Source: a phage
Reading direction: 5' to 3' (one strand)
Sequence record: PQ478073.1
DNA length: 64,000 nucleotides
The position numbers were made by a program, and so were the translations under genes. How positions within the stretch are numbered: position 1 is the first letter of the stretch; every line of letters starts with the position of its first letter. Below are positions 32,219-48,124 of the stretch, one piece after another. The notes under the pieces were generated by a model. That model searched no databases, was not told the DNA's origin, and saw only the letters and a list, made by a program, of their open reading frames with translations.

Positions 32219-32714
32219 TACTAATATCTGGTTAGATAACATAATCAAGACATTAGAATTAATTAAACTTACATTACAAAAAACTACTGATATTGAAATT
32301 AATATTAAACAAGAAATATTAAACTATTATCATAGAAACAAATATAGCACTTTTATCTCTAAATTAATTTATGGATTATATGATATTGAAGATATTTGCA
32401 TCGGTTACAGTACTGGTATTTGCTTCACTGTTAATGGTTTAAAAAATGATTTAAATTTCAGACTTTCCGATGAAGAGCAAGATTTTCGTAGATTTTGTGA
32501 TAATATTATGGATACAGACAAAATTACATTTGTGATTGAATTAAATCAAACATGGTCTACATATGCAGATAAACCATTTGAAATTAATGAAACAGATGTG
32601 TTAAACTATATTCGAGTTATGAAAATTCATGATTTGTGTAAAAACGCATTGTTAAGTATTGGAGCTTATAATGAAACATACGACTTGGTTGAAGATAGCA
32701 GAAGTAGTTGCTGA
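32190..32714 (+). CDS. hypothetical protein
   Basis: ORF track; GAGGGA RBS. Confidence 0.55.
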   Translation: MKYTHLSIDDTNIWLDNIIKTLELIKLTLQKTTDIEINIKQEILNYYHRNKYSTFISKLIYGLYDIEDICIGYSTGICFTVNGLKNDLNFRLSDEEQDFRRFCDNIMDTDKITFVIELNQTWSTYADKPFEINETDVLNYIRVMKIHDLCKNALLSIGAYNETYDLVEDSRSSC

Positions 32715-33150
32715 GGAAAGTAAATGTATTTCACAAAAAGTTGGTTGTGTTATTGTTAAAAATAATAGAGTATTGAGTACTGGATACAATGGAACGCCAT
32801 CTAAGCAGCCAAACTGTTGTGATGTAAATCAACATTTAGTGAACGATGGTCGTTTTCAAGACTGGGTTGATGATGCAGCAAAACATGAACATCATGAGTG
32901 GAGTAATATTCATGAGATCCATGCAGAGATGAACGCTTTACTGTATAGTTCTCCTACTGAACGCCAAGGAGCAACTCTTTACACAACTCTACAACCATGC
33001 TATACTTGTTCTAAGTTAATCGCAGGTAGTGGGATTACCCGTGTAATTTATCACAAAAGTTATCCACGAACACCACCTGAAGCGATTAAAGTACTGGAAG
33101 ATGCTGGGATTATTGTTAACTGCATTTATGACAAGGGTATGAATCAATGA
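32671..33150 (+). CDS. cd: dCMP deaminase
   Basis: zinc-binding HAEMNAL ... PCYTCSKLI; GGAG RBS before ATG at 32671. Confidence 0.8.
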   Translation: MKHTTWLKIAEVVAEESKCISQKVGCVIVKNNRVLSTGYNGTPSKQPNCCDVNQHLVNDGRFQDWVDDAAKHEHHEWSNIHEIHAEMNALLYSSPTERQGATLYTTLQPCYTCSKLIAGSGITRVIYHKSYPRTPPEAIKVLEDAGIIVNCIYDKGMNQ

Positions 33151-42915: not shown

Positions 42916-43160
42916 GAAAAAATATCATGAAAAATATATTCATTACATTAACAATATTTGTATCCATTATTCTCTGTGGTTGTGCTCCTAAAGTTGATGA
43001 GATGGATGCTGAAATCATCCGTCAAGGTTTAACAAAACTAAATCATCAAGGAACACTATATGCATGTCATACTATGCGTCATGGGCAAGATCTTAATCTC
43101 ATGTGCAGGAAGATTGTGAATCGCAAACGTCTTAATACTGTTCCGAAGGATGCACAATGA
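42912..43160 (+). CDS. small predicted lipoprotein
   Basis: signal peptide ending in lipobox-like ILCGC. Confidence 0.55.
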   Translation: MRKNIMKNIFITLTIFVSIILCGCAPKVDEMDAEIIRQGLTKLNHQGTLYACHTMRHGQDLNLMCRKIVNRKRLNTVPKDAQ

Positions 43161-43327
43161 AAGAAGTAATTGGCTACAAATGTAAAAATTGTGGCAAAGA
43201 TAAGGGTAAGCATTCAATACAAGGAATGGCTTGTCCAAATCCAGGACGTGGTAATTTCAGAGGGTTCAGTACTGAAAAGTCTTACGAACCGGATCATACC
43301 AAACCTGTAATGGGTTATAAATTATGA
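43157..43327 (+). CDS. small zinc-ribbon-like protein (about 56 aa), below ORF-track cutoff
   Basis: hand-read MKEVIGYKCKNCGK...MACPNPGRGNF...; ATGA coupling at both ends. Confidence 0.4.
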   Translation: MKEVIGYKCKNCGKDKGKHSIQGMACPNPGRGNFRGFSTEKSYEPDHTKPVMGYKL

Positions 43328-43683
43328 GTGATTATGTAGCATTTCTTCATCGCTTTGGAGAAGCTAAAGAAAAACATATTATCCGTATGCCATTATATGG
43401 TGAAAAAGACTGGTACAAAAGTACTATCAGTGTAGGTGCATTTCGTGACCGTGAAGCTGGATTCTTTCTGGGTAAGCAACATGAACGAGAGGTACTTTGC
43501 TCACTTTGGCGTTTAGATGAATGGGATAGTGAGAACGTAAGAACTGCTGAATCAATGATGGCTATTGTTGGTATTGCGAACTATCAGCACCCATATGATC
43601 TATTACCTACATTTGAACATGCTTCTTTGTTTGACTTTTACAAAGCAGTAGGGTATGATTATAAAAAGAAACGTTACGTTTAA
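43324..43683 (+). CDS. hypothetical protein
   Basis: ORF track. Confidence 0.55.
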   Translation: MSDYVAFLHRFGEAKEKHIIRMPLYGEKDWYKSTISVGAFRDREAGFFLGKQHEREVLCSLWRLDEWDSENVRTAESMMAIVGIANYQHPYDLLPTFEHASLFDFYKAVGYDYKKKRYV

Positions 43684-43729
43684 CATCAGTACTGCCACTA
43701 TGGACGGTACTTTTTAATTGGAGATTACT

Positions 43730-44344
43730 ATGACTACATCGGAAAAGTACTGGTGGATTTTGGGTCATCCTAAATTCATAAACAAAGATATGGTTCCAGC
43801 TAGGATTGATATAGAACCTCATGATGTGTGTCCAATGACAAATCGAATTGAAGATTTCAAAGCATTGAATACAAAGACTCAATTTTGGGTAGAATTTCTT
43901 TCACCAATGTATATTGAGCAAGACGACGAATGGGTACAAGCACATGATTATCAATTGGATTGTGGTGGTGATACGTATGAAGAGGCCATTGATGAATTAT
44001 ACAAAAATGTGCTAAGAACATATGGTGATTACACCCAACAAGAAGCGGACGATGAATTTAATAAGATCCATGTAGCTATTTCGACATCATCAATTTATAA
44101 TCCCACTAAAACAGTTTGGGAGGAACGACACAGTTGGTGTTCATGTGTAATCGATGAAGAAACCAAAGAAAAAATCATCGATGACATAAAAAATTTAAAA
44201 AATACAATCCAAGCCTTGCGTGCATTCATAAAGTCTTGTACAATAGAAGAACAGCAAGAGGCAAAGATACATTTGGAGAGTGAAGAATGTAAACTTTGGG
44301 TTCTAGAAAAATCACTTGAAAAGGGTATAGACTTAGACTTATGA
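43730..44344 (+). CDS. hypothetical protein (track ORF opens with TTG at 43718)
   Basis: GGAG RBS before ATG at 43730. Confidence 0.55.
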   Translation: MTTSEKYWWILGHPKFINKDMVPARIDIEPHDVCPMTNRIEDFKALNTKTQFWVEFLSPMYIEQDDEWVQAHDYQLDCGGDTYEEAIDELYKNVLRTYGDYTQQEADDEFNKIHVAISTSSIYNPTKTVWEERHSWCSCVIDEETKEKIIDDIKNLKNTIQALRAFIKSCTIEEQQEAKIHLESEECKLWVLEKSLEKGIDLDL

Positions 44345-44709
44345 ATAGTAAATTGGAGAAACTTGTTGAAGAATTACGCCGGATGCCACCTATTGAGCAA
44401 GTAGGGAACTACAAGCGGTATCGTGTGATTGCTCGTGCACTGGATAAAAAAGGGCGAGTACTGGCAACACGCACAAATTCTTATACACAGACACATCCAG
44501 TACAGAAAGGTTTTGCAATTCGTGCTGGACGTCCACAAGGTGAATTTCTCCATGCTGAAATTTCTTGCTTATTAGCTGCACGTGCTGATGTTCATACTTT
44601 ACTGATTGCACGGATAAGTAAAGATGGTATTCCTGTACCTGCTAAACCATGTGAAATTTGCACATTAGCAATTATGGAATACGGGGTTAAGGAAATTATC
44701 CACACATGA
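44341..44709 (+). CDS. small cytidine-deaminase-fold zinc deaminase
   Basis: HAEISCL ... PCEICTLAI zinc-ligand pattern about 30 aa apart. Confidence 0.6.
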   Translation: MNSKLEKLVEELRRMPPIEQVGNYKRYRVIARALDKKGRVLATRTNSYTQTHPVQKGFAIRAGRPQGEFLHAEISCLLAARADVHTLLIARISKDGIPVPAKPCEICTLAIMEYGVKEIIHT

Positions 44710-44930
44710 AGAAAATCGAGCGTTATACAAACCATACCGTTGTAGTTGAAAATGATATATTTTATTATTATATTTTCAGACCTATACATTGTTGCCAAAT
44801 AACAACATACAATAGTGGAAGGTTTTATGACAAGAACTTTCACATTACTGAGTTAGCAAAATATTCCAGTACTGAACACTTTAGTAATCTAGTATATGTG
44901 TACTGTATACCAAACCCAAATAACAAGTAG
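44706..44930 (+). CDS. hypothetical small protein
   Basis: ORF track; ATGA coupling. Confidence 0.45.
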   Translation: MKKIERYTNHTVVVENDIFYYYIFRPIHCCQITTYNSGRFYDKNFHITELAKYSSTEHFSNLVYVYCIPNPNNK

Positions 44931-44939
44931 GAGATTAAA

Positions 44940-45299
44940 ATGGCTAAAACTATTTCTTTAAAAAATGAAAATGTAGGACAACGCAAAGATGGTTTCTTTG
45001 GATTCTCATGGACAACATTATTCTTTGGACCGTTCCCTGCATTGTTTCGTGGTGACTTTATTACGTTCATCGGTGCATTTGTAATTTACTTCATCCTCAA
45101 CGCAGTGTCATTTTGGATTGTGGGTACAATTGCAATGGTCGTGTGGGCATTTCTTTACAATAAGTACTACACAGTGAATCTCATTAAGAATGGGTATAAA
45201 TTCAATGGCACACATGAAGAAAATGCTGAAGCTGCAATGGCTTTACAAATTGATTTGAATAAAAACAACACAGTTGATAAAAACAAAGATCCAGAATAA
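44940..45299 (+). CDS. two-TM membrane protein
   Basis: ORF track; GGAG RBS. Confidence 0.55.
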   Translation: MAKTISLKNENVGQRKDGFFGFSWTTLFFGPFPALFRGDFITFIGAFVIYFILNAVSFWIVGTIAMVVWAFLYNKYYTVNLIKNGYKFNGTHEENAEAAMALQIDLNKNNTVDKNKDPE

Positions 45300-45515
45300 A
45301 TGGAAAAATATGACATAATTTACGATTATTATGGTAAGGCTTATATGAAGTGTGGGCGTTATGTTGAACTCTCTAATAGAGAATCAATAGATCCCCACAC
45401 TATTATAACAATTCATAATTCGTACTATAAAAAAGTTACAATAGCTAATTTTGCAACATACGTAAATAATCCTTTATTTCCTTACATTATTCAGTACTAC
45501 TGTAACGTTTTGTAG
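45300..45515 (+). CDS. hypothetical small protein
   Basis: ORF track. Confidence 0.45.
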   Translation: MEKYDIIYDYYGKAYMKCGRYVELSNRESIDPHTIITIHNSYYKKVTIANFATYVNNPLFPYIIQYYCNVL

Positions 45516-45528
45516 TAGGAGTTATATT

Positions 45529-45714
45529 ATGGGAAGTGTAATATTTAAAAAAGAATACGATGGTGAAAGTCTCTATGATATTCAGAGAGATGTGCATGAA
45601 GCCTTCGATTCAAGATTTAACCCATTAGCTGAACAAATCCCACAAGATGAGTTTGGTTTTCAAGAAGGGACGTTCACAGTAACTATTACATGGAGTCCAG
45701 ATGAGACTAATTAA
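45529..45714 (+). CDS. hypothetical small protein
   Basis: ORF track; GGAG RBS. Confidence 0.45.
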   Translation: MGSVIFKKEYDGESLYDIQRDVHEAFDSRFNPLAEQIPQDEFGFQEGTFTVTITWSPDETN

Positions 45715-45807
45715 ACTATTCATTGGTTGCAGTGCAATTGCAATTTATATGTTATGCCCAGCACCAATTAACACTGTTATGCTAATTTGGGCAGTTGTTA
45801 TATTAGC

Positions 45808-45833
45808 AGTACTTTAAAAGCACCCTTGTGGTG
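45808..45833 (+). terminator. rho-independent terminator
   Basis: stem AGCACC/GGTGCT then T-run. Confidence 0.65.
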
Positions 45834-45977
45834 CTTTTTCTATTTGTGCAAATAAAAAGCAATGTGACTTTTCCTTGATATAGGTCAAGAGAAATAACCT
45901 GTTCTGACGCTATAATGTTGTCTGGTGATATTAAATATCTTCACCCCCAGATGATTTCAAAATACAAGGAATGTACA

Positions 45978-47783
45978 ATGCAATTAGATAAATTATATAC
46001 CGATGTAACAAATTTCCTAAATCAGAGTAATACTGATCTTACTAATGAAAACGCTAATAAAGATGCAAAATGCGTCAATACACATAGAGATTTACTAGCA
46101 GGTATTCTATCTAAGCATTATTCACAAGATGTTATTCCCACCGAGTTAATGCAATGGCATAATGATGGATATGGTCATATTCATGATTTAGATTACTATA
46201 TTAGCCCATTGACCAATTGTTGCTTGGTTAACTATCCTGATATGCTTAAAAACGGCTTCACTATTGGTTGTGCTAAAATTGAAGAACCAAAAAGTTTCAG
46301 TGTAGCTTGCACAGTACTGACACAAATTGTCCAAGCTGTTGCCAGTTCCCAATATGGTGGTCAATCTTTGGCTCACATTGATGTCGGATTAGAACCTTAC
46401 GTTCAAAAGTCATGGGATAAGCTGTTAGAAAAACAAAAGAAATATAATCTAAGTGATGAATTCATTGAAGAAGAACTACGTAAAGAAGTGTATGATGGCT
46501 GCCAAACATTACTTTACCAAACTAATTCAATGATTAGTACTAATGGTCAAGCTGCATTTATTTCTCTTAGTTTAGGTCTTAACACTTCTAAATTTGGTAA
46601 ATTAATCACTGAACAGTACTTAAAAGTCCATGAGAATGGTTTAGGTAAAGATAAGATTACTCCAGTGTTTCCTAAAGTAATTTTCTTTTTACAAGATGGT
46701 ATAAACATGAATACCAACGATAGTAATTATGACCTTAAACAGTTAGCTATGCGTTGTGCATCAAAACGAATCTACCCTGACTTTGTTTCAGTACCATTAA
46801 ATCACAAAGTGACTGGAAGTAGTAGTACTGCTGTAACACCGATGGGCTGTCGTTCATTCTTAGGAAAATGGGAAGATTCAAATGGAAATGAACAATACAA
46901 CGGTCGTTTCAATTTAGGTGTGGTTTCTATCAATTTACCTCTAATTGCTCTTGAGAGTACTTCTGACGGAGAGTTTTTTGATAAGATAGACGAGCATATG
47001 AATATTGCATATCGTGCTCAGATGAACCGCGTAGAGCGTTTAAAAGGCACTAAAGCAAAGCAAAATCCAATTTTGTTCATGGAAGGTGCATTAGCACGTT
47101 TAGGTGCAGAAGAAACCATTGACAAGCTATTTTACAATGGTTATGCTAGTATTAGTATTGGTTATGTTGGACTTGTTGAATGTTCAGAAATCCTCACTGG
47201 TTCTATCAGTAAGGAGTTTTGTATGTCAGTACTGAATTATATGAAAGTAAAATGCGATGAGTTCAAAAAAGAGAGTAATATAGCTTTTAGTCTATATGGA
47301 ACGCCAGCAGAGTCACTTTGTTATAAATTTGCACGTTGTATTGAAGCAAAATATCCTTCAGTACTAAAACGTGATTACATCACAAATTCCTTCCATCAAC
47401 CAGTATGGGTAGAAAGTTCTCCATTTGATAAATGGAGTTATGAAGAAGGCTTTGCTTACCTAAGTAACGGTGGAAACATCAGTTATGTTGAATCTCCAAA
47501 CTTAGCAAACAACATTCAAGCACTTGAAACATTAGTTAACTATGCTTACACGAAGATACCATATTTTGGTATTAACCAACCAGTTGACCATTGTTATGAA
47601 TGTGGCTTCCAGGGTGAGTTCAGTGTAGATAAACATGGTTTCCACTGTCCGGTATGTGATAATCGTAATGAGAAGACAATCTCAGTGATTCGTCGTGTTT
47701 CTGGTTACTTGGGTAATCCTTCTTCGCGTGGATTCAATAAAGGCAAACAACAAGAGTGTTGTGAGCGTATTCAGCACAAATAA
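45978..47783 (+). CDS. nrdD: anaerobic ribonucleoside-triphosphate reductase
   Basis: NENANKD ... RDLLAGI region, C-terminal Cys cluster and glycyl-radical RVSGYLG parallel T4 NrdD; start set to ATG with AAGGA RBS. Confidence 0.9.
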   Translation: MQLDKLYTDVTNFLNQSNTDLTNENANKDAKCVNTHRDLLAGILSKHYSQDVIPTELMQWHNDGYGHIHDLDYYISPLTNCCLVNYPDMLKNGFTIGCAKIEEPKSFSVACTVLTQIVQAVASSQYGGQSLAHIDVGLEPYVQKSWDKLLEKQKKYNLSDEFIEEELRKEVYDGCQTLLYQTNSMISTNGQAAFISLSLGLNTSKFGKLITEQYLKVHENGLGKDKITPVFPKVIFFLQDGINMNTNDSNYDLKQLAMRCASKRIYPDFVSVPLNHKVTGSSSTAVTPMGCRSFLGKWEDSNGNEQYNGRFNLGVVSINLPLIALESTSDGEFFDKIDEHMNIAYRAQMNRVERLKGTKAKQNPILFMEGALARLGAEETIDKLFYNGYASISIGYVGLVECSEILTGSISKEFCMSVLNYMKVKCDEFKKESNIAFSLYGTPAESLCYKFARCIEAKYPSVLKRDYITNSFHQPVWVESSPFDKWSYEEGFAYLSNGGNISYVESPNLANNIQALETLVNYAYTKIPYFGINQPVDHCYECGFQGEFSVDKHGFHCPVCDNRNEKTISVIRRVSGYLGNPSSRGFNKGKQQECCERIQHK

Positions 47784-47791
47784 GGTAAATT

Positions 47792-48124
47792 ATGGATTTA
47801 AAGCCAATTGTGGTTAACAAATACAAAGAACCGTATGATGTGTATATTGGACGTGGGTCTAAATGGGGAAACCCATTTACCCATATTAAAGATAAACAAA
47901 CTAAAGCCGAATTCATTGTTAGTACAAGAGAAGAATCAATTGAAAAATTCAGAGAATACATTATTGAACGTATTTCTTGTGGAGAAGTTAAGATTGATGA
48001 ATTACTTGAACTCGCAGGGAAACGCCTTGGTTGTTTCTGTAAACCCAAATCATGTCACGGCGATGTTCTTGTCGAAATAGTGAGTGCAATATTAGATGAA
48101 TTACCAGACGATAATCAAGGATGA
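47792..48124 (+). CDS. conserved small Cys-containing protein (GNPF ... CFC ... CHG); family assignment uncertain
   Basis: ORF track; sits between nrdD and nrdG. Confidence 0.5.
   Translation: MDLKPIVVNKYKEPYDVYIGRGSKWGNPFTHIKDKQTKAEFIVSTREESIEKFREYIIERISCGEVKIDELLELAGKRLGCFCKPKSCHGDVLVEIVSAILDELPDDNQG

What the first reader, a model, noticed from the sequence alone, without database searches (positions are those of the whole stretch)
44341..44709. Second, minimal deaminase in addition to dCMP deaminase
A 122-aa protein carries the zinc-ligand pattern HAE ... PCxxC in a compact cytidine-deaminase-like arrangement, separate from the canonical dCMP deaminase at 32671-33150. A second deaminase could act on a different nucleotide pool, on tRNA, or on nucleic-acid bases.
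Basis: partly seen in the sequence, partly recalled or inferred. Interest (0 to 1): 0.5.

Follow-up and report, generated by a model that had tools for sequence, protein, structure and literature searches.

The report
Stripped-down second phage deaminase
The 122-residue protein is a real, strongly conserved zinc deaminase from a large, uncharacterised, phage-only family of unusually small and very basic enzymes; it most likely converts cytosine nucleotides to uracil nucleotides for thymidine synthesis, but its true substrate is untested.

Summary
ORF 44341-44709 (+) encodes a 122-aa protein with HAE (aa 71-73) and PCEIC (aa 103-107). The window is Escherichia phage 121Q-like (Asteriusvirus, a Rak2-like jumbo phage), and the protein is 100% identical to 121Q gp490, already labelled "dCMP deaminase" in GenBank. 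It passes Pfam PF00383, models confidently (pLDDT 92) as a CDA-fold core, and evolves under strong purifying selection (dN/dS 0.03-0.04).

It is not a canonical dCMP deaminase. It belongs to a large phage-restricted "mini" clade (about 1,130 clusters at E<=1e-10, 96-166 aa). The clade has its own signature (N-x-Y-x-K-T-H-P-x-Q, an invariant Arg on a long strand3-helix3 loop). It lacks helix-4 and strand-5: 121Q ends at strand-4, while longer relatives add an antiparallel hairpin. It is very basic (median pI 9.6, versus 6.4 for canonical enzymes).

Its closest solved relatives by sequence profile are dCMP deaminases (S-TIM5, E=4e-10). In two unrelated AT-rich phages it is the only CDA-fold deaminase, alongside ThyX. 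In 121Q and two other lineages it coexists with a canonical enzyme.

Best reading (about 0.5): a non-allosteric cytosine-nucleotide deaminase. Main rival (about 0.27): a polynucleotide deaminase. A TadA-like role is unsupported.

The parts
44341..44709 (+). Mini deaminase gene (122 aa; identical to 121Q gp490). Predicted topology: helix1, strand1, strand2, inserted helix, helix2 (HAE), strand3, long loop, helix3 (PCxxC), strand4, then the protein ends.
   Evidence: ORF. 100% aa identity to 121Q gp490. Pfam PF00383 at 29.4 bits. AF2 model pLDDT 92.1 with elements H3-14, E28-34, E40-45, H53-61, H72-80, E86-92, H105-114, E118-121. dN/dS 0.03-0.04.
44551..44559 (+). Codons for H71-A72-E73: the first zinc ligand and the catalytic glutamate.
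   Evidence: Sequence. H71 and E73 are 100% conserved and A72 97% conserved in 231 family members.
44647..44661 (+). Codons for P103-C104-E105-I106-C107: the second and third zinc ligands.
   Evidence: Sequence. P103, C104 and C107 are 100% conserved.
44476..44508 (+). Clade signature N46-S-Y-T-Q-T-H52-P53-V-Q55-K (family consensus N-x-Y-x-K-T-H-P-x-Q). N46 aligns with T4 dCMP deaminase Asn40, which contacts the deoxyribose.
   Evidence: N46 99%, K50 87% (Q in 121Q), H52 93%, P53 92%, Q55 91%. T4 contact residues from PMC12697855, mapped through the alignment.
44611..44646 (+). Invariant R91 and the long strand3-helix3 loop (R-I-S-K-D-G-I-P-V-P-A-K). The loop is 10-11 residues longer than in canonical dCMP deaminases. 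It is a candidate phosphate-binding element (inferred).
   Evidence: R91 99% conserved, K102 78% K/R. Loop-length contrast with canonical enzymes.
43718..44344 (+). Upstream gene (121Q gp489 homologue, 208 aa as called here from a TTG; unknown function, PHROG 16370). Its stop overlaps the deaminase start (ATGA), so translational coupling is likely.
   Evidence: The adjacency is conserved only among Rak2-like phages.
44706..44930 (+). Downstream gene (121Q gp491 homologue, 74 aa, unknown function). Its start overlaps the deaminase stop (ATGA).
32671..33150 (+). Canonical dCMP deaminase (121Q gp469, 159 aa). It has GYNGTP, a short T-L-Q-PC loop and a C-terminal helix4-strand5; pI 6.7.
45915..47783 (+). 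Anaerobic ribonucleotide reductase NrdD, 1.2 kb downstream (nucleotide-metabolism context). NrdG follows it.

Best explanation
gp490 is an active, stand-alone zinc-dependent hydrolytic deaminase from a phage-restricted 'mini' clade of the CDA superfamily. It most likely deaminates a cytosine (deoxy)nucleotide in the pool: dCMP, dCDP or dCTP, possibly a C5-modified form. The product would be a uracil nucleotide that feeds the phage thymidylate synthase, helping a 33% G+C genome replicate in a roughly 51% G+C host. Chemistry (established knowledge of the fold): H71, C104 and C107 hold a zinc-bound water, and E73 shuttles the proton. Inferred steps: N46 binds the sugar 3'-OH; V29, A72, E73 and P103 line the cytosine pocket as in T4 dCMP deaminase; the clade-specific R91, K102 and K50 on the loops around the pocket bind the phosphate(s). 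The protein has no room for the allosteric dCTP/dTTP site or for the helix4-strand5 tail of canonical dCMP deaminases. It would therefore act as an unregulated enzyme with different specificity alongside the canonical, probably regulated, gp469. Shown here: the gene, fold, catalytic residues, selection, clade and distribution. Inferred: the substrate, its phosphate state and the lack of regulation.
For: Real and functional: Pfam above cut-off, 100% conserved catalytic residues in 231 members, dN/dS 0.03-0.04, confident model. Nearest characterised relatives by profile are dC-nucleotide deaminases: S-TIM5 dCD E=4.4e-10, S. mutans dCD 1.6e-7, T4 dCD 3.7e-7, human DCTD 2e-5, against tetrameric CDA at 0.02. 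Among 40 diverse members, the sub-threshold NCBIfam hits are most often the anti-phage dCTP deaminase (20/40) and ComEB (13/40). All five T4 dCD residues that contact the dC moiety (V24, N40, A105, E106, P131; PMC12697855) have conserved counterparts: V29, N46, A72, E73, P103. In Synechococcus phage Sf-CH8 (175 kb, 40% GC) and Aeromonas phage 2L372X (116 kb, 36% GC), the mini gene is the only CDA-fold deaminase in six frames. Both phages also encode ThyX and ribonucleotide reductases, and 2L372X a dUTPase. The gene sits among nucleotide-metabolism genes in 121Q, with nrdD/nrdG 1.2 kb downstream. There is precedent that phage CDA-fold 'dCMP deaminases' differ in phosphate-state specificity because the alpha-phosphate contacts are not conserved (PMC12697855).
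Against: No activity has been measured for any member. The clade lacks features of canonical dCMP deaminases: GYNG, the short strand3-helix3 loop, and helix4-strand5 with the YR motif. Its long form has an antiparallel strand4-5 hairpin, which is the other structural division of the superfamily. It coexists with a canonical dCMP deaminase in 121Q, in contig L007 and, as adjacent genes, in L022, so a simple duplicate role is unlikely. A net charge of about +9 (median pI 9.6 versus 6.4 for 120 canonical enzymes) is unusual for a free-nucleotide enzyme. Being the sole deaminase beside ThyX is only suggestive, because many phages with ThyX have no deaminase at all (my own knowledge).
Confidence: 0.5

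Rival explanations
1. It is a polynucleotide cytosine deaminase that acts on ssDNA, mRNA or tRNA (C-to-U). It would be used by large lytic phages to damage or reprogramme host nucleic acids, or to edit RNA. The open active site that results from losing the C-terminal elements would admit a flipped-out base from a polymer.
For: The clade is uniformly very basic: median pI 9.57 and net charge +9 in 230 members, against 6.43 and -2 in 120 canonical enzymes, p about 1e-50. Conserved K/R lie both near and far from the pocket. Iyer et al. 2011 describe loss of strand-5 and truncation after strand-4 only for toxin-type, nucleic-acid-targeting clades. [quoted passage not shown] The long form has the C-terminal hairpin typical of that division. 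Phage enzymes annotated as dCMP deaminases can deaminate ssDNA in vitro (bioRxiv 10.1101/2024.12.05.627091).
Confidence: 0.27
2. It is a TadA-like tRNA adenosine-34 deaminase, as some automatic annotations (JGI) call members of this clade.
Against: The 121Q protein gives no hit to the curated TadA model, and only 7 of 40 clade members give sub-threshold hits. The helices after strand-5 that characterise TadA/Tad2 (PMC3239186) cannot exist, because the protein ends at strand-4. The fully censused carrier phages encode only tRNAs with G, U or T at position 34: gtt, tct and tcc in Sf-CH8; tat and tgg in 2L372X. The window has no tRNA gene. The host already has an essential TadA (established knowledge).
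Confidence: 0.04
3. It is a decaying or non-catalytic remnant: a truncated duplicate of the dCMP deaminase, or a regulatory subunit that pairs with gp469.
For: It lacks the last strand of the fold, and a full-length paralogue lies 11 kb away.
Against: dN/dS is 0.03-0.04. All catalytic residues are invariant across 231 diverse members. The short form is shared by about 40% of clade representatives, 58 of 146. The clade occurs without any canonical partner in Sf-CH8 and 2L372X. It is only distantly related to gp469, which scores 29 bits on the mini profile against 147 bits for gp490, so it is not a recent duplicate.
Confidence: 0.03

Closest known systems
dCMP deaminase family (T4 Cd, S. mutans and human DCTD, cyanophage S-TIM5 dCD; IPR016473), including the phage dCTP-specific and promiscuous members (PBS1, phiR1-37, DSS3_VP1, PBCV-1 bi-DCD)
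   Same: Same HAE / PCxxC zinc site. The residues that contact the dC moiety in T4 Cd are conserved. This is the best profile match among solved structures (S-TIM5 at 4.4e-10). Both are encoded by large lytic phages with their own thymidylate synthase and RNR. S-TIM5 dCD is also small (138 aa).
   Different: No GYNG motif. The strand3-helix3 loop is 10-11 residues longer and carries an invariant Arg. There is no helix-4, parallel strand-5 or YR tail: 15 residues follow PCxxC, against at least 35 in canonical enzymes. There is no second zinc site and no room for the allosteric site. pI is 9.7 against about 6.4. It falls below every curated family cut-off.
Tetrameric cytidine deaminase / blasticidin-S deaminase (C-terminal hairpin division)
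   Same: Similar size (120-135 aa). These are the top Foldseek hits (M. tuberculosis CDA at 9.5e-5). They also have a long loop before PCxxC. Long-form clade members share the antiparallel strand4-strand5 hairpin.
   Different: The motif is HAE rather than CAE. There is no PCxxCR motif and no conserved Glu at the end of strand-5. TIGR01354 scores 13.8 bits against a cut-off of 113.65. Profile similarity is much weaker than to dCMP deaminases (0.02). The 121Q protein has no strand-5 at all.
TadA / ADAT2 tRNA adenosine deaminases
   Different: No helix-4, strand-5 or C-terminal tRNA-binding helices. No curated-model match. No A34 tRNA substrate is encoded by the censused carrier phages.
C-terminally truncated toxin deaminases (YwqJ, BURPS668_1122, XOO_2897 clades; DddA/SsdA-type effectors)
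   Same: [quoted passage not shown]

Membership tests
CDA / deaminase superfamily (Pfam PF00383 dCMP_cyt_deam_1) | [HC]xE in helix-2 plus PCxxC in helix-3 as zinc ligands and catalytic Glu | tested here: met
   HAE at aa 71-73 and PCEIC at aa 103-107. Both motifs are 100% conserved in 231 clade members.
CDA / deaminase superfamily (Pfam PF00383 dCMP_cyt_deam_1) | Score above Pfam's gathering threshold | tested here: met
   29.4 bits against a cut-off of 25, E=7.8e-7. All 40 diverse clade members match, best 3e-16.
CDA / deaminase superfamily (Pfam PF00383 dCMP_cyt_deam_1) | Three-layer alpha/beta/alpha deaminase fold with a five-stranded core sheet | tested here: inconclusive
dCMP deaminase (T4 Cd / ComEB / DCTD; helix-4 division) | Helix-4 between strands 4 and 5, making strand-5 parallel (Iyer et al. 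2011) | tested here: not met
   The protein ends 15 residues after PCxxC, at strand-4. Long-form relatives have an antiparallel hairpin instead. 120 canonical relatives of gp469 have at least 35 residues after PCxxC.
dCMP deaminase (T4 Cd / ComEB / DCTD; helix-4 division) | Residues that contact the dC moiety (T4 V24, N40, A105, E106, P131) | tested here: met
   The counterparts are V29, N46, A72, E73 and P103 (alignment; conservation; residue list from PMC12697855). TadA and other clades largely share these residues, so this test is weakly discriminating.
dCMP deaminase (T4 Cd / ComEB / DCTD; helix-4 division) | Curated family model (NCBIfam TIGR02571 ComEB) above cut-off | tested here: not met
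   No hit for the 121Q protein. Only sub-threshold hits in 13 of 40 clade members. The canonical gp469 does hit ComEB, though at 69.4 bits it is also far below the 219.45-bit cut-off, so this test separates the two proteins only weakly.
dCMP deaminase (T4 Cd / ComEB / DCTD; helix-4 division) | Hexamer with allosteric activation by dCTP and inhibition by dTTP; dCMP-to-dUMP activity | not testable with these tools
   This needs biochemistry. [quoted passage not shown]
TadA tRNA adenosine-34 deaminase | Curated model (NCBIfam NF008113 PRK10860) above cut-off, and two helices after strand-5 | tested here: not met
   No hit for the 121Q protein. 7 of 40 members give only sub-threshold hits. No residues exist after strand-4.
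TadA tRNA adenosine-34 deaminase | Availability of an A34 tRNA substrate specific to the phage | tested here: not met
   No tRNA in the window. Sf-CH8 tRNAs have anticodons gtt, tct and tcc; 2L372X has tat and tgg. The rest of the 121Q genome was not scanned.
Tetrameric cytidine deaminase (CDD/CDA) | C[H]AE, the PCxxCR motif, Glu at the end of strand-5, and the TIGR01354 cut-off | tested here: not met
   TIGR01354 scores 13.8 bits against 113.65. PCEIC is followed by T, not R. There is no strand-5.
Toxin-type deaminases (YwqJ, SCP1.201/DddA, BURPS668_1122, XOO_2897) | Match to the clade's Pfam model; secretion or delivery module and adjacent immunity gene | tested here: not met
   No such Pfam hit in 40 members. 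The proteins are stand-alone, 96-166 aa. No conserved neighbour was found in 22 non-redundant loci.
Anti-phage dCTP deaminase (NCBIfam NF041025) | Full-length model above cut-off (two-domain, about 437 aa) | tested here: not met
   11.6 bits against a cut-off of 400, and only the deaminase core aligns. The gene is phage-encoded.

The most novel reading that the evidence does not exclude
The mini clade (about 100-135 aa, net charge about +9, with strand-5 absent or reduced to a hairpin) could be a phage-encoded polynucleotide cytosine deaminase family acting on ssDNA or RNA. That would make it the smallest natural nucleic-acid deaminase scaffold. It would also be the first such enzyme with a role in lytic phage infection, and an attractive compact domain for base editors.
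Probability: 0.25. Interest if true: 0.75.

Novelty: new variant of a known kind. Interest (0 to 1): 0.4.

Why it matters
The gene is labelled "dCMP deaminase", "TadA" or "hypothetical" in different records, and nobody has tested it. It represents a very large phage-only clade: about 1,130 clusters at 50% identity with E<=1e-10. The clade is found in Rak2-like and phiKZ-like jumbo phages, T4-like cyanophages and Aeromonas phages. It departs from every characterised deaminase family in architecture and charge.

If it is a nucleotide-pool enzyme, it shows a minimal, probably unregulated way for AT-rich phages to push cytosine into the thymidine pathway. It would also explain why some phages keep two deaminases.

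If it acts on polymers, it would be a new class of phage weapon or editor and a very compact tool domain. Either way, a simple substrate panel on one purified protein would correct the annotation of hundreds of phage genomes.

Tried and rejected
- **Guilt by association.** I called ORFs in 40 loci (22 non-redundant) and clustered them with all-against-all BLASTP. Nothing is conserved next to the gene outside the syntenic Rak2-like phages. The upstream gp489 family is Rak2-specific, and the immediate neighbours have no Pfam or PHROG function.
- **Single-sequence PDB search.** It gave nothing significant; only profiles worked.
- **Literature.** The jumbo-phage comparative paper PMC7824862 does not mention deaminases. 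The S-TIM5 structure paper is not held, so I did not score its dCMP- and dTTP-site residues. The 5mC-selective phage deaminase mSCD-B5 is a 154-aa canonical-type enzyme, not a mini-clade member.
- **Locus searches.** The search for related loci failed with the broad alignment A2, so I used A1. The cellular-genome scan is pattern-based and reaches only fairly close relatives.
- **Not done.** I did not run a whole-genome census of a phiKZ-like carrier or identify the phiKZ gene number. My recollection that phiKZ encodes a dUTPase-fold dCTP deaminase was not confirmed by the literature search, and I do not use it.
- **Rejected readings.** Chance motif, TadA, tetrameric CDA, toxin module and decaying duplicate (see the membership tests and rivals).

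Full report
**What is there.** The window is from a close relative of Escherichia phage 121Q (Asteriusvirus, a Rak2-like jumbo myovirus): 98.4% nucleotide identity over 43000-47800. The ORF at 44341-44709 (+) encodes 122 aa that are 100% identical to 121Q gp490, annotated "dCMP deaminase". HAE is encoded at 44551-44559 and PCEIC at 44647-44661. The start overlaps the stop of the upstream gene, and the stop overlaps the start of the downstream gene, both as ATGA. The gene therefore sits in a tightly packed same-strand array, 1.2 kb upstream of nrdD/nrdG and 11 kb downstream of the canonical dCMP deaminase gp469 at 32671-33150. A six-frame scan of the window finds exactly these two CDA-fold genes.

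**Is it real?** Yes.
- Pfam PF00383 is matched above its gathering score, 29.4 against 25 bits, and PHROG 174 at 6.6e-13.
- AlphaFold2 with a 20-sequence alignment gives pLDDT 92.1. The topology is helix1, strand1, strand2, an inserted helix, helix2 (HAE), strand3, a long loop, helix3 (PCxxC) and strand4, where the chain ends.
- Between Asteriusvirus orthologues dN/dS is 0.03-0.04.

**The clade.** An exhaustive profile search found 4,658 representatives at E<=1e-3 and 1,130 at E<=1e-10. The top 150 are all 96-166 aa.
- Across 231 members, H71, E73, P103, C104 and C107 are 100% conserved, N46 and R91 99%, and K50, H52, P53 and Q55 about 90%. This gives the signature N-x-Y-x-K-T-H-P-x-Q ... L-H-A-E ... 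R-(10-11 residues)-A-K-P-C-x-x-C.
- Aligned with canonical phage dCMP deaminases from the same loci, the clade lacks GYNGTP. Its strand3-helix3 loop is 10-11 residues longer. It also lacks the C-terminal YR...helix4-strand5 segment.
- Of 146 representatives, 58 end within 19 residues of PCxxC, like 121Q, and 78 carry 20-31 residues with a T-T-x-x-G turn.
- A model of the long-form member P0214 (pLDDT 91.6) shows strand4 (117-122) followed after two residues by strand5 (125-130), an antiparallel hairpin. In the classification of Iyer et al. [quoted passage not shown]
- By sequence profile, however, the nearest solved proteins are dCMP deaminases: S-TIM5 4.4e-10, S. mutans 1.6e-7, T4 3.7e-7 and human 2e-5. 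TadA-type enzymes follow at 1.7e-7 to 1e-3, and tetrameric CDA is far at 0.02.
- All 40 diverse members match only PF00383 (40/40), MafB19-deam (24) and Bd3614-deam (6), with no toxin, APOBEC or DYW model. The canonical gp469 matches those same three models.
- NCBIfam gives only sub-threshold hits, most often the anti-phage dCTP deaminase (20/40) and ComEB (13/40). The clade is thus a distinct, uncharacterised branch of the superfamily.

**Distribution.**
- tblastn finds the clade in 196 phage records: Rak2-like jumbo phages of enterobacteria, 47-48 phiKZ-like Pseudomonas phages, 49-57 Synechococcus myophages, 15 Aeromonas phages and others.
- All named members are phage proteins.
- A pattern scan of 185,579 species genomes returned two hits, both MAG contigs.
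- Public names alternate between "dCMP deaminase", "TadA", "cytidine deaminase" and "hypothetical".
- The literature I could search notes two CMP/dCMP deaminases in phage CBB (PMC5259590) but only one in RaK2 and phAPEC6. None examines this protein.

**Evidence on function.**
1. *Nearest relatives and pocket.* These point to a cytosine nucleotide. The T4 residues that contact the dC moiety (V24, N40, A105, E106, P131; PMC12697855) correspond to V29, N46, A72, E73 and P103, all conserved. The same paper shows that CDA-fold phage enzymes range from dCMP-specific to dCTP-specific because the alpha-phosphate contacts vary. The phosphate state therefore cannot be read from homology.
2. *Genome census.* In Synechococcus phage Sf-CH8 and Aeromonas phage 2L372X, the mini gene is the only CDA-fold deaminase in all six frames. 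It sits beside ThyX and RNRs, plus a dUTPase in 2L372X. Their genomes have 40% and 36% G+C. The hosts are much more GC-rich (my own knowledge).
3. *Coexistence.* 121Q, contig L007 (3.2 kb apart) and L022/L023 (adjacent genes) carry both a canonical and a mini enzyme. The two enzymes are therefore not simply redundant.
4. *No conserved partner.* No neighbour is conserved in 22 non-redundant loci.
5. *Charge.* The clade has median pI 9.57 and net charge +9 (n=230). For 120 relatives of the canonical gp469 the values are 6.43 and -2, Mann-Whitney p about 1e-50. The two 121Q proteins differ the same way, 9.71 against 6.69, so genome composition does not explain it.
6. *Truncation.* Iyer et al. report loss of strand-5 only for toxin-type, nucleic-acid-targeting clades, and their YwqJ description partly resembles this clade.
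7. *No tRNA target.* The censused carriers have no A34 tRNA, and the window has no tRNA at all.

**Novelty and verdict.** The gene and its broad label are already in GenBank, so "a second deaminase" is not new. What appears undescribed in the sources I could search is that it belongs to a huge phage-only clade with a reduced fold (four strands, or a hairpin fifth strand), its own motif set and a strongly basic surface. The clade fits none of the curated deaminase families. I rate it a new variant of a known kind, of moderate interest (0.4). It would be higher if the polymer-substrate reading proved true.

Noticed in passing
window ~45503-45533 (compare L001 15163-15593): The window lacks about 430 bp that 121Q has here. 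This corresponds to 121Q gp494 (411 nt, hypothetical protein), which is also present in SP27 and Turkey3. This phage therefore carries a clean deletion of one small gene between the deaminase and nrdD.
   Followed up: partly
window 45915-47783: From its first ATG the nrdD ORF is 622 aa, but the orthologues in 121Q, SP27 and Turkey3 are annotated at 601 aa (1806 nt). The true start codon is therefore ambiguous by 21 codons.
   Followed up: no
L024 7275-7934; L008 5565-6128; L034 5028-5669; L001 1115-1810 (121Q gp464): ClpP-like protease genes recur close to the mini deaminase in four otherwise unrelated phage lineages, at 52 bp, 0.9 kb, 2.1 kb and 12 kb upstream. The 121Q region itself carries three ClpP- or HslV-like protease genes, and Aeromonas phage 2L372X has HslV-family peptidases. 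This may be coincidence among large phages; it is unexplained.
   Followed up: no
L022 7622-7975 and 7944-8402 (same in L023): In this viral contig a 117-aa mini deaminase and a 152-aa canonical dCMP deaminase are adjacent and overlap by about 30 nt. This is the tightest pairing of the two types that I saw.
   Followed up: partly
L007 9296-13839: In a T4-like metagenomic contig, genes for an Rnl1-type RNA ligase, an AAA_33 kinase-like protein and a TAGT-family protein lie 2-6 kb downstream of the mini deaminase. This looks like an RNA-repair and DNA-modification neighbourhood.
   Followed up: no
L005 8896-9570: A 183-kb phage contig encodes a 224-aa protein with a GGDEF domain and a weak Cas10 palm-domain match, 1.5 kb from the deaminase. 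It could be a phage nucleotide cyclase.
   Followed up: no
L003 4320-6783 (Synechococcus phage Sf-CH8 genes 26, 29, 31): Three 2OG-Fe(II) oxygenase genes follow the mini deaminase directly in this cyanophage.
   Followed up: no
window 32671-33150 and its orthologues: The canonical dCMP deaminase gp469 homologue is named 'tRNA-specific adenosine deaminase' in UniRef. The Sharanji paper also lists a tRNA-specific adenosine deaminase among translation factors, and I infer (not checked) that this is the same protein. gp469 scores as a dCMP deaminase here (PF00383 78 bits, PHROG 174 at 7.5e-62), so that label is probably an annotation error that has spread.
   Followed up: partly
window 43718-44344: The upstream, translationally coupled gene (gp489 homologue, PHROG 16370, unknown function) is called here from a TTG start as 208 aa. 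121Q annotates 615 nt (204 aa). Its adjacency to the deaminase is conserved in all five Rak2-like lineages sampled but nowhere else.
   Followed up: partly
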